Below the pieces are notes generated by a model. The model had not been told where the DNA came from. It saw only the letters and a list, made by a program, of their open reading frames with translations, and ran no database searches. Positions 17,876-64,000 of a DNA stretch of 64,000 nt are shown here, in pieces. This DNA comes from Parcubacteria group bacterium (lineage in GTDB: Bacteria; Patescibacteriota; Minisyncoccia; Moranbacterales; UBA9337): positions 10,442-74,441 of the forward strand of contig JBAZSW010000006.1 in the NCBI GenBank assembly GCA_041662245.1, in the 5' to 3' direction. The position numbers and the translations under genes were made by a program. Positions within the stretch are counted from its first letter, which is position 1. Every line of letters starts with the position of its first letter.

Positions 17876-17943
17876 GGAACACTAATTATAGGTTATACAA
17901 CTCCCTATAAGGATTCTAACACGATCTTAAAAAAATACCGATA

Positions 17944-18512: not shown

Positions 18513-18517
18513 ACTAT

Positions 18518-18784: not shown

Positions 18785-18820
18785 ATGCAGTCCACTTTAT
18801 TATTATAATATCATTTTGTG

Positions 18821-48414: not shown

Positions 48415-48640
48415 ATTTGTTGGAATAAGTCTATAATTTAAGTAATTTTATTGTAACACTAATAAATGTTGATTTCAACATTTATTAAATAATCAATATT
48501 CAATGCTCAATACTCAGTAAATTTGTAATAATCAATTTATCAATAAAAAATGAATATTACGATATTGAGTATCGAATGAATGTTTATTATTGGATATTCA
48601 AAAACCCCTAGCTTTCACTAGAGGTTTCTATCTTTTTAAT

Positions 48641-49183: not shown

Positions 49184-49237
49184 AATATTATTATTTACAA
49201 AAAAGAAGCTCCTAAAAGCCTCTTTTCTTTTGTAATA

Positions 49238-49804
49238 TTATCTTTTTTTAATTTCTTCCATCACCTTATCCGCTTCAGCCAACAAGTGTGCTAAGTCTTT
49301 ATCATTTTCAATCACAAAATCCGCCTTGGCTCCCATCTCAGGAACATACTTTTCAGTTTCCATAGTTTGCTCTGTTTCTATGAATTTTTCAAAACTCATC
49401 GCATCATCACTTTTTTCTCCACGGTTAATCGTTCTTTCCCAACGAATTTTTTGGGGCACATCTATATAAAGAATGTAACTATCCGTATAAGATTTTACAA
49501 AATGAAAATCCTCCCAAAAACGCACTCCATTTACCATAATAATTCCTTCTCCGTTATCAATTCTTTTTCGAAGCGCGCGGCTCAAAATATCATCTCCAAA
49601 TCTATTTCTAAATTGTACCGCTAGCCAAGACTGGTCTTCTTTAGAAAATTTATCAAAATAAATCGCCAATGTTTCTTTTAAAGGGTCAGCAAAACGCATC
49701 TTTTGTACGCCATGCTTTTCTTCTAAGTAATTGGCCACTGTGTCCTTTCCTGATCCGGTTGCCCCCACAAGTCCAATTACAATTCTCTTTTTTTCCTTTG
49801 TCAT
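49238..49804 (-). CDS. P-loop nucleotide kinase-like protein, paralog 2
   Basis: Walker A 'GLVGATGSGKDTV'. Same architecture as the upstream paralog. Confidence 0.4.
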   Translation of the reverse strand: MTKEKKRIVIGLVGATGSGKDTVANYLEEKHGVQKMRFADPLKETLAIYFDKFSKEDQSWLAVQFRNRFGDDILSRALRKRIDNGEGIIMVNGVRFWEDFHFVKSYTDSYILYIDVPQKIRWERTINRGEKSDDAMSFEKFIETEQTMETEKYVPEMGAKADFVIENDKDLAHLLAEADKVMEEIKKR

Positions 49805-49979
49805 TTTGTTAAAGTTTTTTAAATCAATTAGATTCTTTAAAATAAAACACGCCTTAAACCATCCCCTGATTCAACAACATTATTAATTTTATAAAAAATA
49901 TCCAGATAAGTCAATGGCTCATAGATATCAAATAAAATATAAAAGAGTATTAAACTCAATCACCTACATAAAAAGTCTA

Positions 49980-50573
49980 CTATCTATAAGCAATTATATC
50001 GAATGTTTTTATAGCTGAATTGTAAGGAACATACTTACTTTTTTTATCTCCTTCAACAATATCAATATTTTTAAAACCACACGCCAACAATACAGCATTG
50101 ATATCTTCAATTTTATGAATATATTTATCAACTTGTATGTCTTTTCTTTCAAAAATTCCTCCTGACATATTATAGCTAGAAACAAATATCCCTCCCTCAT
50201 TCAAAGACTCAAATATTTGATCAATCATTTTATGTAATTCATTTTTATTAAGATATTGAAAAAGTCTTGTGGCAATCACTATATTATATTTATTTCCCTC
50301 AAAATAATCGGTAACTGATTTTTTTATAAAAGAAATATTTTCTTGAATCTCACCTTCTAGATGAGACATAAAATCAAGATCAGCAATATCAATCGCGTCA
50401 ACATGAAATCCTTTTTTGGCAAGATATATTGAATTCCTACCATTACCACATCCCAAATCAAGCACTTTCGATTTGATAGGGATATCCCCAGCTATCTTTT
50501 TGACAATTTTACTTGGATTTATCGTGTTAATTGAAAATTTTTTCTGCTGGTATGCTTTTTCCCATTTATGCAT
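49980..50573 (-). CDS. class I SAM-dependent methyltransferase
   Basis: Motif I 'VLDLGCGNGRNS'. Confidence 0.7.
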   Translation of the reverse strand: MHKWEKAYQQKKFSINTINPSKIVKKIAGDIPIKSKVLDLGCGNGRNSIYLAKKGFHVDAIDIADLDFMSHLEGEIQENISFIKKSVTDYFEGNKYNIVIATRLFQYLNKNELHKMIDQIFESLNEGGIFVSSYNMSGGIFERKDIQVDKYIHKIEDINAVLLACGFKNIDIVEGDKKSKYVPYNSAIKTFDIIAYR

Positions 50574-50625
50574 ATAAACTATTAATAATTATATTTGTAT
50601 ATTATTCATCAATTCAATTTTTTAA

Positions 50626-53600
50626 CTACAATTTTCCTCCCGAAATATCGAAAAATCTCTCAAAGAAACTTGTTAACCTATTCAAGACACTTTCTCGTTT
50701 TTGTGTTCGTTCACCACTTGGAGAGAATCGAGATACTGGTGGCAATACCTTTGTAATTGCAGTACCAGTTGTCGCAATATTTCCGTCCCGAAAAGCATTT
50801 TTTATAAACTTATATGTCGCTTCCCTATCAAGATTTTCGTTTTCAATAATTCTGTCTAATTCCTCAATTTTCCTTTCTTCAACAAATTTTTGCCAATCTT
50901 CATCTACAATTGAATGAACATCGAGTGAGGTGATAAACTGATTAATAAGATCTTTTTTATTACGAAGTTCAACACTGGAATCAATCGCTTTATTAATATC
51001 AACCAATAACTCTTTGTTTTTAGCATGATCCTCATGGTACTTTTTAATCAGCCCCAAAACAAAATCAATATTAATCTCAACTTGCTTAATAAGCTCCATT
51101 TCAAAAACCACATCATCATTAACGTTTTCTTTTTCCCCTTCTACGCCTTTGCGAAATTCATTATACAAATCAATATACATACTGTGATAATCCTGCACAT
51201 CACGCTCGGTTAAAATCTCATTGCCAATAAATTCGTCAAAAGTTGTCAAAATATTACGCACACGCAAAACCGCTCCATATAATTTGATAAAGTCTTTTTG
51301 ATCCTGTTCCCCCACAATCCTCTTTCCTGCAGGAAATTTCTCCAAAAGCTCCGCGATCAAACTTTTATACCCTCGCACTTCCTTATCATCACCTGCCTTG
51401 TCGGCAGACAGGTCCATGTAGCCGTTGTAATAATCCTCATAAGCCTTAAGGAGCACGATTCCGCAAGCTTCTTTATCTCCAAAAAGCGCGATAGATTCAT
51501 TGGTCGCTTTTTCTAAATTACGAAAACAAACAATATTTCCAAAAGTTTTTACACTATTCAAAATACGATTGGTTCTAGAAAATGCTTGAAGCAAACCATG
51601 CAAACGTAAATTTTTATCGACCCAAAGAGTGTTTAGAGTTGTCGCGTCAAATCCGGTCAAAAACATATTTACTACAATCAAAATATCTACTTCTCTTTTT
51701 TTAACTCTCTCACTAACATCTTTATAATAATTTTGAAATTTATCTGATGACGTGTCATAAGAAGTTCCAAACATTTTGTTGTAATCAATAATGGCACTTT
51801 CAAGAAAATCACGCGAGCTGATATCAAGTCCGCTGGTGTCCTCGGAATTTTCATCAATCATGCCATCCGAGTCTTCATCATTGACTCCGAAACTGAAAAT
51901 TGTTGCTACTTTTAATCTTTTATCACTTGGTTCATTAGCTAATTGTTTTTTAAACTCAAGATAATATTTTTTTGCCACGTCAATAGACGCAACGGCAAAA
52001 ATTGAGTTGAAGCCCGCTAGTCTCCTGTCCTTAATTTTATAAAAACTATTTCGCTTTGTTTTTTGATCAAAGTGCTCACGAATATACTTTACGATATTTT
52101 CCAGTCGCTCTGGCGCAGACAAAATGGCCTCGCGATCGATATCTCTCACTTTTTCATCTTTAATATTCTCGGCTTCATGAACTGTTGAAACATAGTCAAC
52201 TTTAAATGGCAAAACATTTTTATCCGCAATTGCATCCACAATTGTATAAGTGTGCAATTTTTCACCAAAAGCCTGCTCGGTAGTTTTGAAATCAACTCGC
52301 CCACCAGATGAAGAATTTAGGGCAAAAATAGGCGTCCCGGTAAAGCCGAATAAATGATAATTTTTAAAAGCTTTTACAATACTGGCATGCATATCTCCAA
52401 ATTGGCTGCGATGACATTCGTCAAAAATGATAACCATATGCCCATCAAATATTTCATGCTTGCTATTTTTCCCGATAAATTTATCCAGCTTCTGAATAGT
52501 TGTAACAATTATTCTTGAATTTGAATTTTCTAATTGTTTTTTTAAAATAGCGGTACTGGTATTACTATTGGCGGCGCCTTTTTCAAATTTGTCATATTCT
52601 AACATTGTTTGATAATCCAAATCTTTGCGATCAACCACAAATAATACTTTATCGACATATGGCAATTTGCTTGCCAATTGTGCCGTCTTAAAACTAGTTA
52701 AAGTTTTCCCCGATCCAGTGGTATGCCAAATATATCCGCCAGCTTCTAACGTTCCAAGTTTTTTGTAATTAGTACTGATTTCGATCTTGTTTAAAATTTT
52801 CTCAGTGGCGACAATTTGATAGGGTCGCATAGCCAGCAAAAGTCTATCTGTGGTAAAGACGCAATATTTTGTCAAAATATTTAAAATCGTATGCTTGGCA
52901 AAAAATGTCTTGGCAAAATCCATGAGATCAGTAATCGGTCGATTGGTCGCATCCGCCCACCAACTGGTAAATTCAAAACTATTGCTCGTTTTTTTACCTT
53001 TCTTAATCTTACCTTCAGTTGAATCTTTGATGTGCTGGAATCTGGTTGTATTGCTGTAATATTTTGTATGAGTTCCATTGGAAATAACAAACAATTGCAC
53101 ATATTCGAAAAGTCCGCTCGATGCCCAAAAGCTTTCTCGTTGATACCGATTAATTTGATTAAAAGCTTCAGCGATCGCAACACCACGGCGTTTCAGCTCA
53201 ATATGAACCAATGGCAGTCCGTTTACCAACACCGTCACATCATAACGATTAGCGCGCTGTCCTTCCTCAGTAGCATATTGATTAATAACTTGCAGACTAT
53301 TGTTGTGAATATTTTTCTTGTCGATGAGATCAATATTTTTAAAAGTCCCGTCATCTCGGTCTAATATTTTTGTGCTGTCTTCTTGAATAGTGGCTGTTTT
53401 TTCTTCGATGTTTTGATTGGGATTGGCAATAGTACTGACAAAAAACTTTTCCCATTCAGTATCTGAAAAAGTAAAATTGTTTAGTTTTTCTAGTTGCTGC
53501 CTTAAATTAAGCACCAATTCATCCTCAGAGGTGATGCGCAAATATTCATAAGCTTGAGTTTCCAATTGCTTGATAAAAGCGCGTTCAAGATCGGCTTCGC

Positions 53601-53694
53601 TTTGGTAATTTGCGTCACGCAAAAGATCGCCGTTTGGAATGTACAGACCAACCACGGTACTTTCAGGATTTTGCGCGACTAAATTATATTTCAT
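50626..53694 (-). CDS. hsdR: Type I restriction enzyme R subunit
   Basis: 1022 aa. Helicase motif I 'TGSGKT', motif II 'DECH', SF2 motifs. Confidence 0.9.
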   Translation of the reverse strand: MKYNLVAQNPESTVVGLYIPNGDLLRDANYQSEADLERAFIKQLETQAYEYLRITSEDELVLNLRQQLEKLNNFTFSDTEWEKFFVSTIANPNQNIEEKTATIQEDSTKILDRDDGTFKNIDLIDKKNIHNNSLQVINQYATEEGQRANRYDVTVLVNGLPLVHIELKRRGVAIAEAFNQINRYQRESFWASSGLFEYVQLFVISNGTHTKYYSNTTRFQHIKDSTEGKIKKGKKTSNSFEFTSWWADATNRPITDLMDFAKTFFAKHTILNILTKYCVFTTDRLLLAMRPYQIVATEKILNKIEISTNYKKLGTLEAGGYIWHTTGSGKTLTSFKTAQLASKLPYVDKVLFVVDRKDLDYQTMLEYDKFEKGAANSNTSTAILKKQLENSNSRIIVTTIQKLDKFIGKNSKHEIFDGHMVIIFDECHRSQFGDMHASIVKAFKNYHLFGFTGTPIFALNSSSGGRVDFKTTEQAFGEKLHTYTIVDAIADKNVLPFKVDYVSTVHEAENIKDEKVRDIDREAILSAPERLENIVKYIREHFDQKTKRNSFYKIKDRRLAGFNSIFAVASIDVAKKYYLEFKKQLANEPSDKRLKVATIFSFGVNDEDSDGMIDENSEDTSGLDISSRDFLESAIIDYNKMFGTSYDTSSDKFQNYYKDVSERVKKREVDILIVVNMFLTGFDATTLNTLWVDKNLRLHGLLQAFSRTNRILNSVKTFGNIVCFRNLEKATNESIALFGDKEACGIVLLKAYEDYYNGYMDLSADKAGDDKEVRGYKSLIAELLEKFPAGKRIVGEQDQKDFIKLYGAVLRVRNILTTFDEFIGNEILTERDVQDYHSMYIDLYNEFRKGVEGEKENVNDDVVFEMELIKQVEINIDFVLGLIKKYHEDHAKNKELLVDINKAIDSSVELRNKKDLINQFITSLDVHSIVDEDWQKFVEERKIEELDRIIENENLDREATYKFIKNAFRDGNIATTGTAITKVLPPVSRFSPSGERTQKRESVLNRLTSFFERFFDISGGKL

Positions 53695-53699
53695 ATTTT

Positions 53700-54545
53700 T
53701 TATTTCTTAGTTGGTTTATTTTTTTTCGAAAGTAACACTTTTCTAGCGTTTAAAGAGCTGATTACTTTTTTGCCTGTTTCAGCTTCTAATTTCATACGAG
53801 CCTCCTTGGCGATATTGCCTCCGCGCTGTGCGACAACTCCATGCTCTTGAAACGATTTTGGATTTGATACCTCTGATATTTCCTTGGTAGATAGTTCAGC
53901 TAACATATTCAAGATTAATTCCTTGTTGGTCATATTATCTCGAAGATTTTCTTTTTTTAAATCTTTAAACTTTTTATATTCTTTGGCTGTTTTTCCTGCC
54001 CAGGTTTTATAAATAATATCAGTAAGTGTTGCAAATTCCAAGCCTTCTTTTAGTCCGTATTTTTTCCATTCATCGGTGAGTTCTTTGCGAATCTCAATAC
54101 TTTTAAGTCTTTGATTGATCCAATTTTCTGAATATCCAAGATTTTTATAATCCCACATAGCTTGCTCAATAGAAAGTTCCGGATCTTGCATTTGATCAAG
54201 ACGTTTTTTAGCGACTTCCGCTAACCACAATTTAAAAGGTTCCGCTTTTTTGGAAGGGATTGATTGAATAATACGCAAAATCTGTTCAGTATCAACGACA
54301 TCGGTCAGTCTCATTTTTCCGTCAGGAGTTCTCAATTTCAACTGGTTAGTTATACTAACCACTTCACTTCCCTCCTCCTTTAACCTATTTTTAAGCCATT
54401 TCCAATAATTGCGTGTTTTTTTGTAGTCCGATTGATCGGTAAGAATGGCGATAATATCCAAAACGGAAAACCACCATTTTTCGGCGTGCTCATCCCAAAC
54501 CGTACGAACTTGTTTTTTTTCAAAAAGTTGGATAGCGTTTTTCAT
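53700..54545 (-). CDS. BRO-N domain protein (DinD/antirepressor-like) between hsdS and hsdR
   Basis: N-terminus 'IQLFEKKQVRTVWDEHAEKWWFSVLDIIAILT' fits the Bro-N pattern. 281 aa. Confidence 0.4.
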   Translation of the reverse strand: MKNAIQLFEKKQVRTVWDEHAEKWWFSVLDIIAILTDQSDYKKTRNYWKWLKNRLKEEGSEVVSITNQLKLRTPDGKMRLTDVVDTEQILRIIQSIPSKKAEPFKLWLAEVAKKRLDQMQDPELSIEQAMWDYKNLGYSENWINQRLKSIEIRKELTDEWKKYGLKEGLEFATLTDIIYKTWAGKTAKEYKKFKDLKKENLRDNMTNKELILNMLAELSTKEISEVSNPKSFQEHGVVAQRGGNIAKEARMKLEAETGKKVISSLNARKVLLSKKNKPTKK

Positions 54546-54631
54546 AAAAAATAAAGTTAATAATTAATTGAGGCGAATTCGCCATAATTAAACATTTTCT
54601 ACACGCATCAAATCCGATGGGTTTAAAGTGG

Positions 54632-55765
54632 TCAAATTCGACCACTTAACGGCTTAAATGTCAAAAGCTTCCCCCGGTAATATTCATATTGCGATCTTCG
54701 AGCTTTGAGCTCGGCAGGAAGACCGATTGAAATGTCGTTTACCAAAGCATCAAATTTATCAAGAATTGAAACGATGCGTTTTTGTTCTTCAAGAGAATAT
54801 TTTGGGATTGGAATTTTATTAAGATTTGCTTGATTAAGTTTTGGTTGAGCAGCCCCGCTAATGTATGGAGTTAAATCAATTGAATTCAAATAAAACTCAA
54901 TGAACCTTCGTTCCTCATAAGTTTCAAATTCTAACACATGGGCATGATTATTAATCCAGCTCTTCCCACTTACTGAAAAAGCAATTGGTGTAGATCTGGC
55001 TAGTAAATTAGCTCCGTCTTCAGAAACTAAAAGATAATCACCATCAAATATATAATCTTCAACATAATCGACTATTCCTGAAGCCCCATAATAAGGGATC
55101 TCTCCTTTTGTTCGCACCCCTCTTGTGACTGGCTTTCTTTTTGAATCAAGGTTTAGAGAAATTTTATCAAGAGTTGTAAACTCTAAGTCATCTGAATTTA
55201 AAAGTTTGTCTCTATAATACTCGTATTGCCTCTTTCTCGCTTCTAATTCTGCTTCTAATTCTGCTTCTAGCTCTGTAAAACTATTAAGAATTTTAACAAT
55301 TTCTTTTTGGATGGCAAGGGGCGGGATGGGGATTTTTATTTTTTTTAAAAAACTAAAATGCCTTGTGTATTTACCAGTTTTTAAATAAAAATTATTTAAA
55401 GCATAGTAAAAATATTTTATATCTAATACGCTTTGATTTGTTTTAAGAATCTTAATACCATCTGCACCTTGAGCAAAAGAAAAATCAATATATTTTATTG
55501 CTTCAGTATGGTCTCCAAATATAACGTATGAATCTTTAACAATGACTGCGGCATTATCATCAGTATAGCCAACAATGAAATCTTGCCCTTGATCTATAAT
55601 AGGAAATTCACCTGTTGTTTTGTAATATTTTTTTGTAAGCTTTTTAGGGGGAATGCAGGTTTTTACAACTTTATCTTCAAGTAAAATATCAATATCAAAA
55701 AACTTCACACCATTAGGGCATAGTTCAGCAATTAGTTTTTCGATTTTATTTTGTACCTCTAGCAT
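54632..55765 (-). CDS. hsdS: Type I restriction-modification specificity subunit
   Basis: Two target-recognition domains separated by conserved coiled-coil repeats ('ELEARKRQYEYYRDKLL', 'LKARRSQYEYYRGKLLTF'). Confidence 0.85.
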   Translation of the reverse strand: MLEVQNKIEKLIAELCPNGVKFFDIDILLEDKVVKTCIPPKKLTKKYYKTTGEFPIIDQGQDFIVGYTDDNAAVIVKDSYVIFGDHTEAIKYIDFSFAQGADGIKILKTNQSVLDIKYFYYALNNFYLKTGKYTRHFSFLKKIKIPIPPLAIQKEIVKILNSFTELEAELEAELEARKRQYEYYRDKLLNSDDLEFTTLDKISLNLDSKRKPVTRGVRTKGEIPYYGASGIVDYVEDYIFDGDYLLVSEDGANLLARSTPIAFSVSGKSWINNHAHVLEFETYEERRFIEFYLNSIDLTPYISGAAQPKLNQANLNKIPIPKYSLEEQKRIVSILDKFDALVNDISIGLPAELKARRSQYEYYRGKLLTFKPLSGRI

Positions 55766-55773
55766 AATAATAT

Positions 55774-56778
55774 TTATGTGACATCAAATAAAGATTTTTG
55801 ATTAATATTTTTTTCCTCTCTTTTCTTTGTATCTTTTTTTATAGCTAAATCTTTTTTATGTTGAACCAAATTATCATTATGAGAAACAACCTTCTTTACA
55901 TATAGATTAGGTTTCCCAAATTTTCCACTAGTATAATTATAATAAAGACTGATATCAAAAACTACTCCAATATTATCGCCACTTGTAAATGAAATCTCTT
56001 GGTCTAGAATTTGCTTTTTATACTCATCATCTTGCATATAAAAAAATACATTCTCTCCATCTTCTACTAGTAATTTTCCATCGTTATCAAGAATATCACC
56101 TCCATAATATATTCCTTTCCATGCCGCACCCCTTCCATATTGTTGTTGTTTATCAATAAACGGCTGCGATAATTGTATATGACCAGATAAATCCGTCCTT
56201 AAAAATTCTTTTTCCTTGGGAAAATCCTCTATATATAAAGCAAAATCACTTCTATAAATCTCTTTTTCAAAACTATTTTTATCTTCTTTAACAACTGTCT
56301 TTATGCTGGTGACATTACTATCTGAAATTACAGATTCATAAAATTTGTTTTTCTGTTTCTTGGGAAAATATGAATCACATATATCACTCACAGTCTGGAT
56401 TTTTTCATCATCTAAGCCAAGCTCTTTACATTTTTCTACGATCTCTAATATATTAAGATCAGAAGTTGTATTATTCAATCTTATTTGACTACCAAATAAT
56501 AATGCTGGGATCAAAACACCCACGACTGAAATAACCCCTTGGTTATTATTCAAAAATTTAATAATCTTCCAATCCCCATAGGATCCATCTTGTGGTGGCA
56601 AAGATAAAATCTCAAATTTTTCATTAGGATATAATGTCCTTATTACATAAGAAATTATTTTTACCTGAGCCAAGGAACATGCATTTTTTGTGTAAAAATT
56701 AATCGAATGAACATCATTATTAAAAAAATTATAATGCAATTTAATAACTATTTCATTTTTGGATAAATTAATTTTCAT
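55774..56778 (-). CDS. hypothetical protein, third gene of the cassette embedded in the Type I R-M operon
   Basis: 334 aa, no recognisable motif. Co-oriented with the upstream cassette genes and hsdM, and tightly packed against hsdS. Confidence 0.4.
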   Translation of the reverse strand: MKINLSKNEIVIKLHYNFFNNDVHSINFYTKNACSLAQVKIISYVIRTLYPNEKFEILSLPPQDGSYGDWKIIKFLNNNQGVISVVGVLIPALLFGSQIRLNNTTSDLNILEIVEKCKELGLDDEKIQTVSDICDSYFPKKQKNKFYESVISDSNVTSIKTVVKEDKNSFEKEIYRSDFALYIEDFPKEKEFLRTDLSGHIQLSQPFIDKQQQYGRGAAWKGIYYGGDILDNDGKLLVEDGENVFFYMQDDEYKKQILDQEISFTSGDNIGVVFDISLYYNYTSGKFGKPNLYVKKVVSHNDNLVQHKKDLAIKKDTKKREEKNINQKSLFDVT

Positions 56779-56788
56779 ATTATCATAA

Positions 56789-57676
56789 TTAATTTAACGG
56801 TTTTGAAGTAGCGTCTTTTTCAGGAATACTCATATCAACTTCGTCAGCAATGAAGTGATTGCATACATATCTGAGATATTCAAAAACTTCCTCTAGCTTT
56901 ATTATTCCGTTATCAATATAAATTTCAGGGATACTTACAATTAACTTATTGCAAATATTAAGCTTTTGAGAGGACTTTATGTAGCTATAAATTATTTTTT
57001 TCAAAATGTCTTTTTTCTGCTCTGGCGTTCTCCCGTGTCCTGCATTAATAATGGGAATAGTTACAACATCATTTCTACAAGAATCATTCGCAATATAATC
57101 CCATAAACTAATGAGTGACTTTTGCAAATCACCATCTTCAGATTTAACACGATTATTTTCTTGCTTACGAGTATTAACAAGCAAATAAAATAACTTATAA
57201 TTTTTCTCCACCTCAACAACTGTTCCTATTTCATGTTCAATATTAGTTTTGTGTGTTTTATTTATGTCTAAATCTAAGTGCTCAGATTTATTGTCGTAGT
57301 AATCCACAATTAGTCGATTTTGCAGACTACCCGCTTTTGCAACATTTCCATTTAAGGAAACATCCAAATAATTATTAAATGGGATAACTAAAGCACCTTT
57401 ATTATCAAAAGCATCTCCTACTTTTAATTCTACGAAATTATCTCTATCTTTTATCTTCTCTGTTCTTGAACTTACCGGTCTATTTAACCAAAATGAAAGG
57501 GTAGCAAAAATTGATAAAGAAAAAATGTAAACAAATGCATTTTTAAAATAAAAATCACTCTTATTATCTGTGAAATAGCTTGTTACTTCAACCAATAACC
57601 AAAAAACAGTTAACAGACTTATTAATGTTGTTCCAATTTCGTTTAACCTATTCTTTTTTAGCCATCTTTTTATCAT
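56789..57676 (-). CDS. 2TM + Macro-like domain protein (ThsA-like effector of type II Thoeris-like system)
   Basis: Two N-terminal TM helices, then 'GDAF...GALVIPFNNYL....GNVAKA' resembling the macro 'GDI..DAIVNAAN..L.GGGV.AI' motif. 'VTIPIINAGHGRTP' resembles macro 'IAFPAISTGIYGYP'. Start overlaps the upstream TIR-like gene by 4 bp. Confidence 0.5.
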   Translation of the reverse strand: MIKRWLKKNRLNEIGTTLISLLTVFWLLVEVTSYFTDNKSDFYFKNAFVYIFSLSIFATLSFWLNRPVSSRTEKIKDRDNFVELKVGDAFDNKGALVIPFNNYLDVSLNGNVAKAGSLQNRLIVDYYDNKSEHLDLDINKTHKTNIEHEIGTVVEVEKNYKLFYLLVNTRKQENNRVKSEDGDLQKSLISLWDYIANDSCRNDVVTIPIINAGHGRTPEQKKDILKKIIYSYIKSSQKLNICNKLIVSIPEIYIDNGIIKLEEVFEYLRYVCNHFIADEVDMSIPEKDATSKPLN

Positions 57677-58179
57677 ATTCCTAATTGATTATAGATTTCA
57701 TCTTTATAATAGTAGTCTGTTTTACTTCCTTGTTTTTTAAAATTTTCATGCAAATTGGGCCACTCGCTTATAGCTTTAGCTATAATTGCTTTATTAAAGC
57801 TCACGTGGAGAGATAATTCATTATTCAAAATTGAGGGGCAAAGATTTGAATCTTTGTATCTTAAATTATTTAAATTTACGACAATTATTGGTATTTCTCT
57901 GCTCGAAGCTTGCTCTATTTCCCAACGAACAAACTTATATAGAGACTTTGTGCTATTTCCGACTAATAAGATGAAAACTTTTGTGTTATTTAATCGTTCT
58001 CTAAGTTTTGATTTTATTGTTTCTTCGGAGGAGAAAGACATAAGATTATTTAAATCATGTGCATCAAAAAAATTGAAGGAAGATCCATCAGTTTTTTTCC
58101 ATGCCTGCATTAAGCGATAGTATCTAATATCATTGTCTGCATCAAATGCGACGTAAGTTTTATTTGTGTAAGTATTCAT
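57673..58179 (-). CDS. TIR-like (DUF1863-type) domain protein, ThsB-like
   Basis: 'KTYVAFDADNDIRYY' (cf. 'kvFiSYahkDd') and 'VFILLVGNSTKSLYKFVRWEIEQAS..EIPIIVVNL' (cf. 'vvlvllSpnyleSeWv..Ei..A...g..iiPv') match the DUF1863/TIR-like pattern. 168 aa. Confidence 0.55.
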   Translation of the reverse strand: MNTYTNKTYVAFDADNDIRYYRLMQAWKKTDGSSFNFFDAHDLNNLMSFSSEETIKSKLRERLNNTKVFILLVGNSTKSLYKFVRWEIEQASSREIPIIVVNLNNLRYKDSNLCPSILNNELSLHVSFNKAIIAKAISEWPNLHENFKKQGSKTDYYYKDEIYNQLGI

Positions 58180-58222
58180 ATATCTATTTTATTAATTCTT
58201 TTAATAAATTTGTGATTCTATT

Positions 58223-59806
58223 TTATTTTTCAATATCCCCCACAATCTCATCTATCGCCACCCTCAAATCACTCTGCCTTGCCACAATCCGATCAATCTC
58301 CTTATTAAGAACTTTAATATCAACCACCTCTCGCGTATCTTCCGCCACCACATAGCTTGATACCGCGATATTATAATCATTTTCAGCAATAGTGGTGTTG
58401 TCGACCAGCTTGGCAAAATAATCTGCATCTTTACGCTTGATAAAAGCATTCAGAATCTTTTTGCGATTATTTTCACTCAGTTTATTTTTATTCCCGCCTC
58501 GCACAAATTCTTTCGACGCGTCGATAAACAAAGTCTTATTTTCTTTCTTGCTCTTTTTAAGGACAATGATGCAAGTGGCAATTGTTGTGCCAAAGAAAAG
58601 ATCCGGCGGAAGCTGGATAACCGCATCTACATAATTATTATCAACCAAATATTTTCGAATCTTACCCTCTGCTCCACCACGATAGAGTACTCCTGGGAAT
58701 TCAACAATCGCTGCCGTCCCACTGGTAGAAAGCCAAGCGAGCATATGCATCGTAAAAGCCAAATCAGCTTTACTCTTTGGCGCGAGCACTCCCGCTGGAG
58801 AAAAACGTAGATCATTAATTATCAAAGGATTAGCATCGCCATCCCACTTGATAGAATAAGGCGGATTGGAAACGATAGCGTCAAAGGGTTCATCGTCCCA
58901 ATGTTTCGGATCAGTGAGAGTGTCACCATGGGCAACATCAAAATTATTATAATTGATATCGTGCAAAAACATATTGATTCGGCAAAGATTATAAGTAGTC
59001 AGATTTATTTCTTGACCATAAAAACCCTGTCTAACATTTTCCTTGCCCAACACTTTGGCAAATTTTAAGAGAAGTGAACCAGATCCACAACAAGGATCAT
59101 AAACTTTATTGACTTCTTTTTTGCCCACAGTGGTAATTTCTGCTAGCAGTTCGCTCACTTCCTGCGGAGTATAAAACTCTCCTCCGGATTTTCCGGCGTT
59201 TGATGCATACATGGCCATCAAATATTCATAAGCATCGCCAAAAGCATCAATTGTATTATCAGCATACTCACCCAAACGAAGATCGCCAATTGCTTCTAAT
59301 AGTTTTGCAATTCTTTGATTTCTTTTTTCTACCGTTGGTCCAAGCTTATTAGAATTCACATCAATGTCATCAAACAATCCCCTTAGGTCATCCTCACTTT
59401 CAAATCCTTTGGCAGAATTTTCAATATTATCAAAAATCTTAGCCAGTGTTTCATTGAGGTTTTCGTCATTACGAGCATTTTTGCAAACATTCACAAAAAG
59501 CTCACTCGGCAAAATGTAAAAGCCTTTATTGATTATGGTTTCACTACGACCAAATTCCGCTTCTTTATCACTCAATTTTGTATAATCAAATTCTTCCTGC
59601 CCAGAAATTCGTCGTTCGTCTTCATTAATAAAACTAGTCAGATTTTCACTAATAAAACGATAAAAAAGTATTCCAAGGACATACTGCTTGAAATCCCAAC
59701 CATCCACACTTCCCCTAAGGTCATTGGCAATCTGCCAAATGGCGCGATGAAGCTCTGAACGCTCTTGCTCCTTGGTCATATTTAAATTTGTATCTTTTTT
59801 ACTCAT
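58223..59806 (-). CDS. hsdM: Type I restriction-modification DNA methyltransferase subunit
   Basis: N6-adenine MTase motif IV 'NPPYS'; SAM-binding 'DPCCGSGS'. Confidence 0.9.
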   Translation of the reverse strand: MSKKDTNLNMTKEQERSELHRAIWQIANDLRGSVDGWDFKQYVLGILFYRFISENLTSFINEDERRISGQEEFDYTKLSDKEAEFGRSETIINKGFYILPSELFVNVCKNARNDENLNETLAKIFDNIENSAKGFESEDDLRGLFDDIDVNSNKLGPTVEKRNQRIAKLLEAIGDLRLGEYADNTIDAFGDAYEYLMAMYASNAGKSGGEFYTPQEVSELLAEITTVGKKEVNKVYDPCCGSGSLLLKFAKVLGKENVRQGFYGQEINLTTYNLCRINMFLHDINYNNFDVAHGDTLTDPKHWDDEPFDAIVSNPPYSIKWDGDANPLIINDLRFSPAGVLAPKSKADLAFTMHMLAWLSTSGTAAIVEFPGVLYRGGAEGKIRKYLVDNNYVDAVIQLPPDLFFGTTIATCIIVLKKSKKENKTLFIDASKEFVRGGNKNKLSENNRKKILNAFIKRKDADYFAKLVDNTTIAENDYNIAVSSYVVAEDTREVVDIKVLNKEIDRIVARQSDLRVAIDEIVGDIEK

Positions 59807-59988
59807 TTATTTTTTTCTAATTTGAAGTTATCTAACAAAACGCATATGTCTTTATTCTACGCCAAAAAATAAGGCTTGGCAAAAACCTATCCTCTAAACA
59901 AAAAAGATAAGGGTTTATATTTGAGATTTCTCCACTCCTATATTTTTGAGTACAAAAATATATCCAGTCGAAATAACACGCGGAAGGA

Positions 59989-60684
59989 CTACATCATATT
60001 CTTCTCTTTTAAGCTGAAGAAGCTGGTTTGGGTGATTATTATGTGGTCGATTAACTCGATGCCCATTATTTTTCCAGCCTCTTTGAGTCGATTGGTGGTG
60101 GTTAAATCATTATCCGAGGGCTCTGCTCCACCAGAGGGATGATTATGAGCGATGATTATCGAAGCCGCCAGATAATCAATAGCTGATTTAAAAACTTCTC
60201 TCGGATGCACTAAATTAGCATTAAGAGTCCCGACAGAAATGATTTCTTTGTGAATTAGTTGATTGCGCGCATTTAAATATAAAACCACCAAATGTTCTTT
60301 TTTGGCGGTGCGGAGTTCTTGAAGTTGTGCCATCGCCTCTCTGGCGGAGCTTATGACAGGTAGATTATTATCCTCTACTGCTAAAGCACGTTTAGTCAGT
60401 TCAAAGGCCGCCAATAATAAACAAGCTTTGACCGTCCCTATTCCTTTAATCTTAGATAAATTTTTTAAATCCAAAGTTAATAATTTTTTAGTGGGAAACT
60501 TTTTTAAAATCTCTCTGGAAACTTCTAAAACATTTTTACCCGCCACTCCAGTGCGAAGTAAAATCGCCATCAATTCATAATCTTTTAAATTCCCCACCCC
60601 CTTTTCCAGCATCTTTTCTCTGGGCATTTCATGCTTGGCTAGGTTTTTTATTTTTGGCATATTTTTTAATCTTATTTTTTTCAA
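59989..60684 (-). CDS. radC: RadC-like JAB/MPN domain protein
   Basis: JAMM motif 'HNHPSG...SDNDL'. N-terminal HhH region. Confidence 0.8.
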   Translation of the reverse strand: MKKIRLKNMPKIKNLAKHEMPREKMLEKGVGNLKDYELMAILLRTGVAGKNVLEVSREILKKFPTKKLLTLDLKNLSKIKGIGTVKACLLLAAFELTKRALAVEDNNLPVISSAREAMAQLQELRTAKKEHLVVLYLNARNQLIHKEIISVGTLNANLVHPREVFKSAIDYLAASIIIAHNHPSGGAEPSDNDLTTTNRLKEAGKIMGIELIDHIIITQTSFFSLKEKNMM

Positions 60685-60934
60685 TCACTAATTATCAATT
60701 TATTTCCTGATTTTTTATTACGTAATCAATTACGTACCTAATTAAACCTTGAAGTTATACTAAATCCCATTAGCCTCTGCACAATTTAATTTTACAATAG
60801 ATCTCTCGACTCCGCATTCACTTCACTCGAGATGACAATTGTGAGTAACAATTGTTTGGAAATGGTATTATCTGACAGAAAGTAGATACCTCTATTTTAC
60901 TCCTATTTTTAGTTCTTTACCAATTAAAAAATAT

Positions 60935-60968
60935 CCACCTCAGGCGGATATTTTTTTATTGAAAGACG
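60935..60968 (-). terminator. rho-independent terminator after ftsZ
   Basis: atatccacc-tca-ggcggatat hairpin with flanking T-run. Confidence 0.45.
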
Positions 60969-60979
60969 TTAAGTTATCT

Positions 60980-62215
60980 TTATTTTCCCATTTTCCTTCG
61001 GATAAAAGCTGGAATTTCTAACTCGTCATCGCTATCGTCATTCATATCTCTAGTTACGGTAATATTATTTCTCTTGGGTTGTAATTTTTCTTCAATTATC
61101 ATTCGACTCTCGACTTTTCTTGTCGGAAAGGCAACTCTTTCTGGCATAACATTTTCGATTTCATCCAAATCCTTATCCATCACCATTATTTCTTCTTTTT
61201 CTGAAGTATTATTTTTTCTTACTCTCGCTATCATATCGGCAGGAGAGTCTCCATAATCATCCGTATCAAATCCTGTTGCCACTACAGTGATATGCAAATC
61301 TCCTTTTCGCACTTGATCATCTGTCACGGCACCAAAGATAACTTTAGCGTTAGGATCCACATTTTCAGTAATGATATTAGCGGCTTCATTAATTTCAAGC
61401 ATAGTTAAATCGCTAGAACCAGAAACATTAAACAATACTCCTTTAGCGCCATCAATTGATAACTCCAATAAAGGACTGCTAATAGCGGCCTTGGCAGCTT
61501 CCGCAGCTCTATTTTCTCCACTAGAAATTCCAATTCCCATCAAAGCGCTTCCACTATCGGCCATAATGGCTCGCACATCTGCAAAATCCACATTAACAAT
61601 TCCTGGTTTAGTAATTAAATCAGAAATTCCTTGCACTCCTTGTCTAAGCACATCATCTACAATCTTAAATGAATTTATCAAAGTAACTTTTTTATCAATA
61701 ATAGAAAGCAATCTATCATTATGAATAGTAATAAAAGTATCTACTCTCTTTTTTAAATTTTCTAAAGCTTCATTGGCAATTGCTTGGCGTTGTGCTCCTT
61801 CAAAAGCAAACGGTTTAGTTACTACCGCTACTGTTAGGGCTCCCAATTCTTTGGCAGTTTCAGCGACTACGGGACCTGCGCCCGAGCCAGTTCCTCCTCC
61901 TAAACCGCAAGTAACGAAAACCATATCAGTACCTTTCAACACCTCTTGAATTTCATCTCTGTTTTCTTCAGCTGCCTGTCTTCCAATTTCTGGATTCATT
62001 CCTGCGCCCAAACCTTTGGTTAAATTTTTACCAATATGAACTTTTTCCGCCGCTCTTGAATGATGGAGAGCTTGTGAGTCAGTATTAACTGCCACAAATT
62101 CAACCCCTTTGATATTAGAATCAATCATTCTGCTTACTGCGCTGTTTCCACTTCCTCCCACTCCAACAACTTTTATTTTTGCGAAAGTTTCTATATCGGG
62201 TTTAACCTCGGCCAT
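60980..62215 (-). CDS. ftsZ: cell division protein FtsZ
   Basis: Tubulin signature '[10 protein letters not shown]'. 411 aa. Confidence 0.95.
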
Positions 62216-62345
62216 ATATTTTTTAAATAATTACTGACGAATCCAATTCTTTTAGTAAATTAGCTCCTCAATAAAAAATAATTTTTAATTCATTCTTCTT
62301 AGTATATAAATCTATCACAGTTACACAACCTATGTCAAGTAAGCT

Positions 62346-63602
62346 CTAAGGAAGGAAATTATCCGTCCACTTCTTTATTCTACCACCAATTTTTTTCATA
62401 TTAATTTTATCCGTAGAAAAGAAATTCATATATTTATTATGATTTTTATTCTTGCAAGCATTTTGATAGGAACTTGCCAAAAGTCCAATCACTGTAGAAA
62501 ACGACGGTGAATCAATTTTATCTAAAACTCCCGTAACTTCAGTAGGATAACCAGTCTTAGCCGGAAGTCCCAAAATATCTTTAGCAAAAGAAACTACTCC
62601 CGGTAATTCCGATCCGCCACCTATCAAAACTACTCCTGCTGGCAACAATCCCGCTTTGCCGATTTTCTTCAATTCATTATTTATCATTTCAAAAATTTCT
62701 CGAAGTCTGGCTTCAATAATTTCTGCCACATGATATCTCAAAACAACTCCTTCTTCTTTTATGTCAATTTCTGATAATTCTATAATATCTCTTTTATTTA
62801 TTTCTTTAGGAAAAGCACTTCCATATTCTAATTTTATTTTTTCAGCCACTTCTATAGAGGTTCGCAACCCAATAGCCAAATCATTAGTAATATGTCCTGC
62901 ACCTACTGGCAAAACTGTTAAGTAACTAAGCTCGCCCTCCTCATAAATTGTTATTGAAGTTGTCCCACCTCCAATATCCACGATAGCTACTCCCAATTCC
63001 TTTTGGCTTTTATCCAACACTACCGCTGAAGCCGCCACCGAATTTACTGCCAATTCATCAATGTTTACATAATGTCCAACACTTTTGGTTAAATTTCCCA
63101 AATGAGTTGAGGCATCTTCAATCATTAAAACATCCGCCTCTAATCTAATTCCTTTTAGCCCCAAGGGATTTCTTATTTCGCTTTGATCATCTAATTTATA
63201 ACTCTTAGCGATAGAATGGATTATCTCGCTATTTATCGGCATTGAAGCGTTTTTAGCTGCTTCTAAAACTCTTTGAATATCTTCTTCCTCCACTGTTCCA
63301 TTGGCTCTGCCTATGGCGATAACCCCTTTCGTTTTTTGTAACTTTATATCTGTTCCGCCTATTCCCAAAACGATATCATGCACCCGACAATCAATAATAG
63401 TTTCCAATTTATTAATTACTTCACTAATTGATTTGGAAGCGTCTTCAACATCAATCACAGCTCCTCTCCTTATTCCTCTTGATTTAGAAATAGCCACACC
63501 CAAAATCTGTATTTCTTCTTCGTTGTTGATTTGAGCAGCTGCAGCTCTGATATTATTAGAGCCTACATCTAAACTAATTATAATATTGTCCTTATTTGAC
63601 AT
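62346..63602 (-). CDS. ftsA: cell division protein FtsA
   Basis: Actin-like ATPase fold. Immediately upstream of ftsZ. Confidence 0.9.
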   Translation of the reverse strand: MSNKDNIIISLDVGSNNIRAAAAQINNEEEIQILGVAISKSRGIRRGAVIDVEDASKSISEVINKLETIIDCRVHDIVLGIGGTDIKLQKTKGVIAIGRANGTVEEEDIQRVLEAAKNASMPINSEIIHSIAKSYKLDDQSEIRNPLGLKGIRLEADVLMIEDASTHLGNLTKSVGHYVNIDELAVNSVAASAVVLDKSQKELGVAIVDIGGGTTSITIYEEGELSYLTVLPVGAGHITNDLAIGLRTSIEVAEKIKLEYGSAFPKEINKRDIIELSEIDIKEEGVVLRYHVAEIIEARLREIFEMINNELKKIGKAGLLPAGVVLIGGGSELPGVVSFAKDILGLPAKTGYPTEVTGVLDKIDSPSFSTVIGLLASSYQNACKNKNHNKYMNFFSTDKINMKKIGGRIKKWTDNFLP

Positions 63603-63607
63603 AAAAA

Positions 63608-63991
63608 TTAGAAATAGAAATTTAGTAAATTAAATATATGAGGCAAAAATATTATTAATCCTAGCAAAATAGACATCACCGAAGAAATTAAAACTACTCC
63701 TGCCATAATATCTTTTATCAAGCGAGCAAAAGGATGCACCCTAGGCTCGAGAATATCTACCACTCTTTCTACAACAGTGTTAATAAGCTCTGTGACTAAT
63801 ACCCAAGTAATTAAAAAGATGACCACCACAAATTCCCAAATTTTTATATCAAAAATAATTGAACAAAAAACAACAAATATCGCAATCATTAATTCTATTC
63901 TGAAATTTCTTTCATTTTTTATGACATACCTCAGCCCTCTGATGGCACATCGCAAACTACTCTTAAACTTGTTGCTTCTCTTATGCTTCAT
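63608..63991 (-). CDS. dgkA: diacylglycerol/undecaprenol kinase (DgkA family)
   Basis: About 125 aa, three TM helices, 'ELINTVVERVVD' resembles the DgkA conserved core. Confidence 0.65.
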   Translation of the reverse strand: MKHKRSNKFKSSLRCAIRGLRYVIKNERNFRIELMIAIFVVFCSIIFDIKIWEFVVVIFLITWVLVTELINTVVERVVDILEPRVHPFARLIKDIMAGVVLISSVMSILLGLIIFLPHIFNLLNFYF

Positions 63992-64000
63992 ACTAATATT

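What the first reader, a model, noticed from the sequence alone, without database searches (positions are those of the whole stretch)
55774..58179. Three-gene TIR-like + 2TM-Macro + unknown cassette inside a Type I R-M operon: candidate Thoeris-type II-like defense module
hsdM (58223-59806) and hsdS (54632-55765) are normally adjacent. Here three co-directional, tightly packed genes sit between them. (1) A 168-aa protein whose N-terminal 'KTYVAFDADND' and central 'VFILLVGNSTKSLYKFVRWEIEQAS' match the DUF1863/TIR-like (ThsB-type) pattern. (2) A 295-aa protein with two N-terminal TM helices and a C-terminal region resembling a macro (ADP-ribose-binding) domain, overlapping the TIR gene by 4 bp (ATGA), which suggests translational coupling. 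(3) A 334-aa protein with no recognisable family. TIR producer plus membrane-anchored Macro effector is the architecture of type II Thoeris. The extra third gene and the location inside an RM operon suggest a variant or undescribed arrangement.
Basis: partly seen in the sequence, partly recalled or inferred. Interest (0 to 1): 0.85.

Follow-up and report, generated by a model that had tools for sequence, protein, structure and literature searches.

The report
Type II Thoeris plus separate embedded gene
A restriction-modification operon in a tiny-genome (Parcubacteria) bacterium carries an ordinary two-gene type II Thoeris anti-phage system. The neighbouring "third gene" is an unrelated, separately inherited candidate defence gene (PADLOC family PDC-S42), so this is two known kinds of module stacked together and not a new three-gene system.

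Summary
Three tightly packed, co-directional ORFs of 168, 295 and 334 aa lie between hsdM and hsdS of an intact type I R-M operon.

- **ThsB/ThsA.** The 168-aa protein is a ThsB TIR (Pfam PF08937 7e-20; PADLOC 1.6e-70; EcThsB2 structure 8v6t 2e-27, with active-site Tyr/Glu and C-terminal tail conserved). The 295-aa protein is a 2TM-Macro ThsA (PF20016 9e-30). Together they are a canonical type II Thoeris.
- **Third gene.** It is not part of Thoeris. It belongs to PADLOC candidate family PDC-S42. None of 17 other loci encoding its close relatives has Thoeris, and 11 of them show the gene beside hsdM and/or hsdS. None of 9 other contexts of the Thoeris pair has the third gene, and 5 of them are hsdM-thsB-thsA-hsdS.
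- **Variable slot.** The hsdM-to-G3 gap holds nothing, Thoeris, a PtuA-like ATPase, a DUF6119 protein or an unknown gene in different relatives. One relative keeps a recombination scar (hsdS 5' and hsdM 3' remnants).
- **G3 structure.** A confident model (pLDDT 88) shows a conserved hydrophobic helix and an OB-like barrel, with no solved homolog. Its function is unknown, and distant relatives sit among non-defence genes.

Verdict: a new member of known kinds, of modest interest.

The parts
58223..59806 (-). hsdM, type I R-M methyltransferase subunit (host operon, first gene)
   Evidence: PF02384 N6_Mtase 8.7e-116 and PF12161 HsdM_N 2.2e-18. 80-94% identical HsdM in L001-L004, L010, L027, L030, L031.
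58180..58222 (-). 43-bp hsdM-thsB spacer; possibly a decayed remnant of an hsdS 5' start (reads NKIE..I in one frame)
   Evidence: Local alignment to the window's own hsdS 5' end: 23 nt, 83% identity, reached by 7 of 500 shuffles (D11, 105). Weak evidence; suggestive only.
57673..58179 (-). thsB, TIR-domain signal synthase of type II Thoeris (ThsB 'subfamily 9', EcThsB2-like)
   Evidence: PF08937 7.2e-20. PADLOC ThsB 1.6e-70, full length. PDB 8v6t (EcThsB2) 2e-27 over residues 3-168. EcThsB2 active-site Y8/E89 align to Y9/E87, and tail Y159/Y164 to Y158/Y163.
56789..57676 (-). thsA, 2TM-Macro effector of type II Thoeris
   Evidence: PF20016 ThsA_Macro 9.3e-30, residues 82-249. PADLOC ThsA 7.9e-34. 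PDB ThsA Macro domains 8v6q, 8r66, 9uuz, 8v6s. Hydrophobic helices at 14-32 and 46-64. D88 and R216 align with the His-ADPR-binding D100 and R240 of B. amyloliquefaciens ThsA and are invariant in 21 homologs.
55774..56778 (-). G3, PDC-S42-family gene: an independent single-gene module, not part of Thoeris. Predicted N-terminal alpha/beta domain, conserved hydrophobic helix (81-99), helical linker, OB-like beta-barrel (about 190-300) and C-terminal helix.
54632..55765 (-). hsdS, type I R-M specificity subunit
   Evidence: PF01420 Methylase_S 8.6e-35, two stretches.
54559..54596 (.). Palindrome (core GGCGAATTCGCC) in the 86-bp hsdS to Bro-N spacer, followed by a T-rich run; the only sizeable non-coding gap in the operon
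   Evidence: the repeat finder I6; sequence. Function not tested.
53700..54545 (-). Bro-N domain gene, PADLOC candidate PDC-S13: a further embedded module between hsdS and hsdR
   Evidence: PF02498 Bro-N 2.3e-10. PADLOC PDC-S13 7.4e-126. phrog_15286 1.2e-110. Bro-N/PDC-S13-type genes sit downstream of hsdS in L004 and L010 as well.
50626..53694 (-). hsdR, type I R-M restriction/translocase subunit (last gene of the operon)
   Evidence: HSDR_N, SWI2_SNF2, ResIII, T1R_D3-like and EcoR124_C domains, E values 1e-40 to 1e-66.

Best explanation
The locus is an intact type I R-M operon (hsdM...hsdS...hsdR) of a Parcubacteria-group bacterium. It has collected three independent embedded modules.

(1) A canonical two-gene type II Thoeris system (thsB-thsA, translationally coupled).
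(2) A single PDC-S42-family gene (G3).
(3) A Bro-N/PDC-S13 gene.

Thoeris mechanism, inferred from characterised homologs. On phage infection the ThsB TIR enzyme (active-site Y9/E87) converts NAD+ into a histidine-ADPR-type signal. The signal binds the ThsA Macro pocket (D88, R216). Macro domains oligomerise, the two N-terminal TM helices cluster, and the membrane is compromised or growth arrests, which stops phage spread.

G3 is not a Thoeris component. It is an older resident of the hsdM-hsdS gap in this operon family and acts, if at all, on its own. The slot between hsdM and G3 is a variable position into which different genes, Thoeris here, have been placed. The likely route is recombination between type I operons, using the conserved hsdM 3' and hsdS 5' ends as homology arms.

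For G3 I commit to this reading: a membrane-associated single-protein anti-phage module, with a conserved hydrophobic helix and a cytoplasmic OB-like barrel that senses or binds a phage component. Probability about 0.45.

Shown here: gene identities, the independence of the modules, the variable slot, and a scar in a relative. Inferred: the signal chemistry, the effector action, any activity of G3, and co-transcription.
For: - **Identity of the Thoeris pair.** (Pfam, PADLOC and PDB matches). ThsB aligns end to end with EcThsB2 (8v6t), including the Tyr-Glu active site and the Tyr-rich C-terminal tail that define the TM-Macro-specific ThsB subfamily 9 (PMC11204291). ThsA keeps the adenine-binding Asp and the histidine-carboxylate-binding Arg of the His-ADPR pocket.
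- **Two genes suffice.** Shown for E. coli thsA+thsB2.
- **Independence.** The 17 other G3-clade loci contain no Thoeris. Eleven show G3 beside hsdM and/or hsdS (L001/14, L002, L003, L004, L009, L015-L018, L026, L027). Nine other Thoeris contexts contain no G3. Five are hsdM-thsB-thsA-hsdS (L010-12, L013, L030, L031, L032), one is hsdS-thsB-thsA-hsdR (L036), and three are not embedded (L033-L035). The 329-aa gene after hsdM in L036 is not a G3 relative.
- **Mobility of the Thoeris pair.** L013 has ThsB 90% and ThsA 80% identical, but its HsdM is only 34% identical.
- **G3 tracks the operon.** The closest HsdM and HsdR (94% and 90%) go with the closest G3 (71-74%).
- **Variable slot between hsdM and G3.** Empty (L001-3, L018), Thoeris (window), PtuA-like ATPase plus a 130-aa protein (L004), DUF6119 (L026), 164-aa unknown (L027).
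- **Recombination scar.** The L026 spacer holds an hsdS 5' remnant and an hsdM 3' remnant: alignment scores 43-50 against shuffles of 17+-3, 0 of 500 reaching them.
- **G3 clade neighbours are defence genes.** PrrC 3.8e-97, PtuA-like, retron-type RT, type II REase/GmrSD, Mrr_N.
Against:
- EcThsB2, the closest solved ThsB, showed no NADase activity in vitro. The E. coli thsAB2 system caused growth arrest without detectable cell-death markers. The exact chemistry and outcome for this subfamily are therefore unsettled.
- The ThsA pocket is only partly conserved: N133 maps to Q119/N120, Q135 to R121, S194 to T169, and Y277 could not be aligned.
- The TM calls rest on simple hydropathy.
- The contexts sampled are few (about 27 loci), come from metagenomes, and some may be redundant.
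- Tight packing (a 10-bp gap) would allow co-expression of G3 with Thoeris, so conditional cooperation in this one genome cannot be excluded.
Confidence: 0.8

Rival explanations
1. A genuine three-gene Thoeris variant: G3 is a functional third component (a sensor, regulator or second effector) of the ThsB-ThsA system in this lineage.
For: The genes are adjacent, co-directional and only 10 bp apart. All three have below-average GC (0.277-0.298 against an ORF mean of 0.334). G3 has a hydrophobic helix like ThsA, so both could act at the membrane.
Against: None of 17 other G3-clade loci carries Thoeris, and none of 9 other Thoeris contexts carries G3, including the closest relatives of each. Homologous two-gene systems are sufficient in E. 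coli and Bacillus. G3 has no TIR, Macro, SLOG or other nucleotide-signal domain.
Confidence: 0.04
2. G3 is an accessory or guard of the type I R-M enzyme itself, PrrC-like in logic. It would be held inactive by the Hsd complex and released or activated when phage anti-restriction proteins attack the enzyme.
For: In 11 of 17 other loci of its clade, G3 lies next to hsdM and/or hsdS, immediately upstream of hsdS wherever that side is visible, and it tracks operon phylogeny. The same operon family also hosts a true PrrC (L004, 3.8e-97), so guard-type passengers do occur there.
Against: Six clade members (L005-L008, L019, L020) and all 4 annotated distant contexts examined (L021, L023, L024/25, L029) show no homolog of this operon's Hsd subunits or annotated type I R-M genes beside G3. 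There is no ATPase or nuclease domain and no PrrC HMM hit. No interaction data exist.
Confidence: 0.15
3. G3 is not a defence gene. It is a membrane-associated protein of some other role that merely hitch-hikes in a permissive intergenic slot of the operon.
For: Distant PDC-S42 members sit among metabolic and housekeeping genes. The family is a purely computational candidate. It has no catalytic-looking domain and no match to validated defence HMMs.
Against: In the CPR clade its neighbours are almost always defence genes (R-M, PrrC, PtuA-like, retron RT, REase, Mrr). The genomes are streamlined, which argues against retaining useless passengers. Full-length structural matches are to (pro)phage proteins, one carrying DUF6575, a domain present in a validated E. 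coli defence system (a lead only).
Confidence: 0.25

Closest known systems
Type II Thoeris (TM-Macro ThsA + TIR ThsB): B. amyloliquefaciens Y2, E. coli CFT073 and E. coli ATCC 25922 systems
   Same: It has the same two-gene architecture, with thsB upstream of and overlapping thsA. ThsB belongs to the EcThsB2-type subfamily, with the Tyr-Glu active site and C-terminal tail. ThsA has two N-terminal TM helices and a C-terminal ThsA-type Macro domain with the conserved adenine-binding Asp and histidine-binding Arg.
   Different: There is only one ThsB, whereas the E. coli loci have ThsB1 and ThsB2. The Trp motif reads WxxxD (W27..D31) instead of WxxxE. The His-ADPR pocket is only partly identical. 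The host is a CPR/Parcubacteria bacterium. The pair is nested between hsdM and hsdS of a type I R-M operon.
PADLOC phage defence candidate PDC-S42 (Payne et al. 2024, 'guilt-by-embedding')
   Same: G3 matches the PDC-S42 HMM over its full length, and all 85 aligned relatives do too. It is embedded in a type I R-M operon, which is exactly how PDCs were nominated.
   Different: G3 is a divergent CPR branch: E=1.2e-21 against 1e-120 for the best member. Nothing is known experimentally about any member. Many distant members are not embedded and not in defence islands.
PrrC / EcoprrI (anticodon nuclease embedded in a type I R-M operon)
   Same: It shares the genetic logic of a passenger gene nested within hsdM/hsdS/hsdR. 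A true PrrC occurs in a sister operon (L004).
   Different: G3 and ThsB/ThsA have no ATPase or anticodon-nuclease domains. There is no evidence that either is regulated by the Hsd complex.
Defence-island hotspots / cassette exchange by flanking homology
   Same: Variable content sits between conserved flanks (the hsdM 3' end, and G3 or the hsdS 5' end). A scar of duplicated flank remnants is present in L026.
   Different: The flanks are genes of another defence system rather than core genes. No integrase, att-like repeats or direct/inverted repeats bound the cassette.

Membership tests
Type II Thoeris | ThsB protein with a TIR-like (PF08937) domain | tested here: met
   PF08937 7.2e-20, above the 21.2-bit cutoff at 71.7 bits. 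PADLOC ThsB 1.6e-70. PDB 8v6t 2e-27.
Type II Thoeris | Catalytic glutamate in the TIR and, for the TM-Macro-specific subfamily 9, an active-site tyrosine and a ~20-residue C-terminal tail | tested here: met
   By alignment to EcThsB2: Y8 to Y9, E89 to E87, Y159 to Y158, Y164 to Y163, with the alignment running to the last residue. This is sequence alignment only; no structure of this protein was modelled.
Type II Thoeris | ThsA effector with N-terminal transmembrane helices (not SIR2) | tested here: met
   Kyte-Doolittle 19-residue windows of 1.6 or more at 14-32 and 46-64. No SIR2 or SLOG hit. Full-length match to PADLOC TM-Macro-type ThsA models.
Type II Thoeris | ThsA C-terminal Macro domain of the ThsA type | tested here: met
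   PF20016 9.3e-30 (104 bits against a cutoff of 25), residues 82-249. The only PDB matches at E<=0.01 (profile search) are the ThsA Macro domains 8v6q, 8r66, 9uuz and 8v6s.
Type II Thoeris | Conservation of the His-ADPR-binding residues (D100, N133, Q135, S194, R240, Y277 of ThsA_amylo) | tested here: inconclusive
   D100 to D88 and R240 to R216, both invariant in 21 homologs. S194 to T169. N133 to Q119 (N120 adjacent). Q135 to R121. Y277 lies outside the aligned region. The low-identity profile alignment limits certainty.
Type II Thoeris | thsB and thsA adjacent in one operon | tested here: met
   4-bp ATGA overlap. The same overlap is present in L010, L013, L030 and L031.
Type II Thoeris | Phage-induced production of a His-ADPR-type signal, and protection against phage | not testable with these tools
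   Requires phage challenge and LC-MS.
Three-gene Thoeris variant including G3 | Conserved co-occurrence of G3 with ThsB/ThsA across genomes | tested here: not met
   0 of 17 other G3-clade loci have Thoeris, and 0 of 9 other Thoeris contexts have G3.
PADLOC PDC-S42 candidate family | Full-length match to the PDC-S42 HMMs | tested here: met
   PDLC05016 1.2e-21, residues 8-331 on model positions 7-317 of 320. 85 of 85 relatives hit, best 1.1e-120.
PADLOC PDC-S42 candidate family | Found embedded in BREX, DISARM or type I R-M loci | tested here: met
   The window and 11 related loci. PDC definition.
PADLOC PDC-S42 candidate family | Demonstrated anti-phage activity | not testable with these tools
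   No paper in the library mentions PDC-S42. PDCs are untested predictions.
Type I restriction-modification system (host operon) | Intact hsdM, hsdS (two TRDs) and hsdR in one operon | tested here: met
   N6_Mtase and HsdM_N; Methylase_S with two stretches; HSDR_N, SWI2_SNF2, T1R_D3 and EcoR124_C. All ORFs are uninterrupted.
PrrC-type R-M-embedded anticodon nuclease (considered for G3) | ABC-type ATPase N-domain plus anticodon-nuclease C-domain; PrrC HMM match | tested here: not met
   No PrrC or ATPase hit for G3 in PADLOC or Pfam, whereas the L004 protein hits PrrC at 3.8e-97.
DUF6575-containing defence proteins (considered for G3) | Pfam DUF6575 sequence match | tested here: not met
   No DUF6575 hit for G3 or any of 85 relatives, even at E<=10 for 10 of them. 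There is only a Foldseek full-length structural match to a phage protein so annotated (E=1.3e-9, TM about 0.4).

The most novel reading that the evidence does not exclude
The hsdM-hsdS junction of this CPR type I R-M operon family may be a dedicated docking and exchange site. Defence cassettes (Thoeris II, PtuA-like, DUF6119, PrrC, PDC-S42, PDC-S13) would be shuffled between operons, with the conserved hsdM 3' and hsdS 5' ends serving as portable recombination arms. PDC-S42 would itself be a previously uncharacterised membrane-anchored, OB-fold anti-phage protein, possibly one that functionally cooperates with the R-M enzyme.
Probability: 0.25. Interest if true: 0.55.

Novelty: new member of a known kind. 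Interest (0 to 1): 0.3.

Why it matters
It corrects a tempting misreading. Adjacency inside an operon does not make a three-gene system. Here two separately inherited modules have been stacked.

It adds a type II Thoeris example from an ultra-small CPR genome. It also shows that one Thoeris II lineage is habitually nested between hsdM and hsdS, including in an operon whose HsdM is only 34% identical to the window's.

The variable slot and the recombination scar in a relative give a concrete, testable picture of how R-M operons accumulate passengers.

The confident structural model of PDC-S42 (conserved hydrophobic helix, OB-like barrel, no solved homolog) gives a starting point for testing a widespread, completely uncharacterised candidate family of about 190 clusters at 50% identity.

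Tried and rejected
- **DUF6575 lead.** The Foldseek viral hits pointed to a DUF6575-annotated phage protein. Sequence searches did not confirm it, and the domain's system could not be identified from the Vassallo supplements. It is kept as a lead only.
- **Literature on PDC-S42.** It is not mentioned in any held paper or in the stored, truncated supplement tables of Payne et al..
- **Sequence searches in phages and plasmids.** tblastn of G3 and of a distant relative against sequenced phages found no match. Plasmids gave only Vibrio chromids and one Parabacteroides plasmid, in uninformative or non-defence contexts.
- **Viral contig scan.** The scan with alignment A3 failed because no stretch was conserved enough.
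- **Cassette boundaries.** There are no direct or inverted repeats bounding the cassette. Promoter-like sites are at chance level (51 against 44.6+-7.1), and no terminator lies inside the cassette.
- **GC content.** It is only mildly deviant and is not used as evidence of transfer.
- **L036 gene.** The 329-aa gene after hsdM was tested as a possible cryptic G3 relative and rejected (hhalign probability 0.07).
- **L027 gene.** The 164-aa gene was considered as a possible cryptic TIR and rejected: no tblastn match to ThsB and no PADLOC hit.
Full report
**1. Observation**

On the minus strand the order is:

| Gene | Coordinates | Length |
|---|---|---|
| hsdM | 58223-59806 | 527 aa |
| ORF1 | 57673-58179 | 168 aa |
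| ORF2 | 56789-57676 | 295 aa |
| ORF3 | 55774-56778 | 334 aa |
| hsdS | 54632-55765 | 377 aa |
| Bro-N gene | 53700-54545 | 281 aa |
| hsdR | 50626-53694 | 1022 aa |

ORF1 and ORF2 overlap by ATGA. The other gaps are 43, 10 and 8 bp. The three Hsd subunits carry complete domain sets, so the host operon is intact. An identical copy of ORF3 is annotated on a 102.6-kb contig of a Parcubacteria-group MAG. The flanks are housekeeping genes: RadC, FtsZ and FtsA on one side, and a methyltransferase, small kinases, TyrRS, IleRS and RecO on the other. The operon is therefore a compact, self-contained defence locus.

**2. ORF1 and ORF2 are a canonical type II Thoeris**

ORF1 hits Pfam ThsB_TIR (7.2e-20) and a full-length PADLOC ThsB model (1.6e-70). 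It also hits the crystal structure of E. coli ThsB2, 8v6t, at 2e-27 over residues 3-168.

Shi et al. (PMC11204291) describe EcThsB2 as the prototype of a ThsB subfamily found only with TM-Macro ThsA. That subfamily is marked by an active-site Tyr hydrogen-bonded to the catalytic Glu (Y8/E89) and by a ~20-residue C-terminal tail containing Y159 and Y164. In the alignment these residues map to Y9, E87, Y158 and Y163 of ORF1.

ORF2 hits Pfam ThsA_Macro (9.3e-30) and PADLOC ThsA models over nearly its full length (7.9e-34). Apart from two marginal lectin hits (E about 0.5), its only PDB matches are ThsA Macro domains. Hydropathy shows two N-terminal hydrophobic helices.

A profile of 21 homologs aligned to 8r66 places D88 and R216, both invariant, on D100 (adenine contact) and R240 (histidine carboxylate contact) of the His-ADPR pocket. 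The other contacts are conservatively changed or could not be aligned.

Published work on homologs shows that the TIR makes His-ADPR (abstract) and that Macro binding drives oligomerisation and TM clustering (abstract). It also shows that thsA+thsB2 alone are sufficient and that the TM helices are essential.

**3. ORF3 (G3) is a separate module**

G3 has no Pfam, NCBIfam, PHROG or PDB match. It does match PADLOC candidate PDC-S42 over its full length. PDCs are untested candidates nominated because they are embedded in BREX, DISARM or type I R-M loci.

I collected 17 other loci encoding close G3 relatives (49-74% identity) and screened them with the window's proteins.

- None contains ThsA or ThsB.
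- Eleven have G3 beside hsdM and/or hsdS (immediately before hsdS wherever that side is on the contig): L001/14, L002, L003, L004, L009, L015-L018, L026, L027.
- Six lack the operon nearby (L005-L008, L019, L020). There the neighbours include a type II REase/GmrSD-HNH with an EcoRI-type methylase, and a retron-type RT.

Conversely, I looked up the contexts of ThsA relatives.

- All five contexts with ThsA 73-82% identical are hsdM-thsB-thsA-hsdS with no G3: L010-12, L013, L030, L031, L032. (P0055 and P0057, 71%, lie on contigs of 3.0 and 1.6 kb and were not examined.)
- One of these, L013, has an HsdM only 34% identical to the window's, so the pair has moved between unrelated type I operons.
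- Among relatives at about 45-50% identity, L036 has the pair between hsdS and hsdR, and L033-L035 are not embedded.
- The unannotated 329-aa gene after hsdM in L036 is not a G3 relative.

Co-occurrence of G3 and Thoeris is thus unique to the window. The three-gene cassette is two modules side by side.

**4. How they came together**

The position between hsdM and G3 is variable:

| Loci | Content of the hsdM-to-G3 slot |
|---|---|
| L001-3, L018 | empty |
| window | Thoeris |
| L004 | PtuA-like ATPase plus a 130-aa ORF |
| L026 | DUF6119 protein |
| L027 | 164-aa unknown |

In L026 the 138-bp spacer between DUF6119 and G3 is made of two remnants. One is a truncated hsdS start (MSNHQNKIEKLITEL*). 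The other is a decayed hsdM 3' end (...IDEIVNNIE*). Local alignment scores are 43-50 against 17+-3 for shuffles, with 0 of 500 shuffles reaching them. This is a scar of recombination between an hsdM-X-hsdS operon and an hsdM-G3-hsdS operon.

The window's own 43-bp hsdM-thsB spacer shows a weak echo of the hsdS start (7 of 500 shuffles), which I treat as suggestive only. No repeats, integrase or att-like sites bound the cassette. Promoter and terminator scans are at chance level, consistent with read-through from the hsdM promoter, though that is an inference.

G3 has the lowest GC of the 47 long ORFs in the window (0.277). thsA and thsB are at 0.293 and 0.298, and hsdM at 0.388. These deviations are mild.

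**5. What G3 might be**

An exhaustive profile search found 190 clusters (at 50% identity) with E<=1e-3. Most of those listed are 300-350 aa and align over most of the profile.

- All 85 members I aligned hit PDC-S42, and none hits Pfam.
- Members occur in CPR bacteria, Flavobacterium, Acinetobacter, Vibrio, Parabacteroides and a Pacearchaeota MAG.
- With this alignment AlphaFold2 gives a confident model (pLDDT 88, pTM 0.72).

The model has an N-terminal alpha/beta domain, a helix at 80-95, a disordered loop, three helices, a beta-hairpin, a beta-barrel at about 190-300 and a long C-terminal helix.

The hydrophobic character of the 81-99 segment is conserved in position but not in sequence. 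KD19 is at least 1.2 in 82 of 85 members, and the segment is the global hydropathy maximum in every member. That is the signature of a membrane-embedded helix.

Against a defence role, the distant members with readable annotation sit among housekeeping genes.

My best guess, at about 0.45, is an autonomous membrane-associated anti-phage protein. A PrrC-like guard of the R-M enzyme is at about 0.15, and a non-defence passenger at about 0.25.

**6. Comparison with what is known, and novelty**

The Thoeris pair passes every sequence-testable membership criterion for type II Thoeris. Only the pocket residues are partly inconclusive, and activity cannot be tested here. G3 is a member of the already catalogued PDC-S42 candidate family. 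Embedding of defence genes in type I R-M operons is already described (PrrC; Payne et al. 2024).

What is modestly new:

- a type II Thoeris in a CPR genome;
- the observation that this Thoeris lineage is habitually nested in the hsdM-hsdS gap, including in an operon with a highly divergent HsdM;
- the variable slot and the recombination scar;
- a confident fold model for PDC-S42.

I rate this a new member of known kinds, with interest 0.3.

Noticed in passing
window 53700-54545 (-): A further embedded gene lies between hsdS and hsdR: a Bro-N domain protein matching PADLOC candidate PDC-S13 (7.4e-126) and phrog_15286 (1.2e-110). Bro-N/PDC-S13-type genes sit downstream of hsdS in L004 and L010 too. 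The L010 protein also partly matches a type I specificity-subunit model.
   Followed up: partly
window 54559-54596: A palindrome with core GGCGAATTCGCC (it contains an EcoRI site), followed by a T-rich run, lies in the 86-bp hsdS to Bro-N spacer. This is the only sizeable non-coding gap in the operon. It could be a terminator or attenuator, or an operator.
   Followed up: no
L026:1640-1777: The spacer between a DUF6119 gene and the G3 homolog consists of a truncated hsdS 5' start and a decayed hsdM 3' end. It is a recombination scar between two type I operons (0 of 500 shuffles reach the alignment scores).
   Followed up: yes
L004:6583-12651: A sister operon carries four passengers: a PtuA-like ATPase plus a 130-aa ORF, the G3 homolog, a true PrrC (PADLOC 3.8e-97) and a Bro-N gene. 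The order is hsdM-PtuA-130aa-G3-hsdS-PrrC-BroN-hsdR.
   Followed up: partly
L036:2587-4264: Two unannotated genes (329 aa and 145 aa, no Pfam or PADLOC hit) sit between hsdM and hsdS of an operon that also carries thsB-thsA between hsdS and hsdR. They are further untested embedded candidates.
   Followed up: partly
L027:6510-7004 and L026:92-1639: A 164-aa protein with no detectable family and a 515-aa DUF6119 protein occupy the same hsdM-to-G3 slot that Thoeris occupies in the window. Neither is in PADLOC.
   Followed up: partly
window 59989-60684; L003:1455-2114; L036:247-927: radC lies upstream of hsdM in the window, in L003 (about 1 kb upstream) and in L036 (about 130 bp upstream), and a RadC-fusion ORF lies near G3 in L007. 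The RadC-type I R-M neighbourhood may be conserved.
   Followed up: no
window 1-64000: All 39 ORFs of 150 aa or more in 1-50000 that are not nested inside longer ones, all genes from 50000 to 64000, and all four tRNAs (17137-18893) are on the minus strand. GC skew is negative in nearly every window over the profiled 48000-64000 stretch. The gene-strand bias is extreme.
   Followed up: no
window 48641-49183 and 49238-49804 (-): Two adjacent, similar small P-loop kinases (DNMK/AAA_17/CoaE-like hits) lie just downstream of the R-M operon. They look like a tandem duplication, and their role is unknown.
   Followed up: no
window thsB residues 27-31: The Trp motif reported as essential in E. coli ThsB2 (WxxxE) reads WKKTD (WxxxD) here. 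The Trp is conserved and the acidic residue is changed from Glu to Asp. The mapping of the motif is my inference from the 8v6t alignment.
   Followed up: partly
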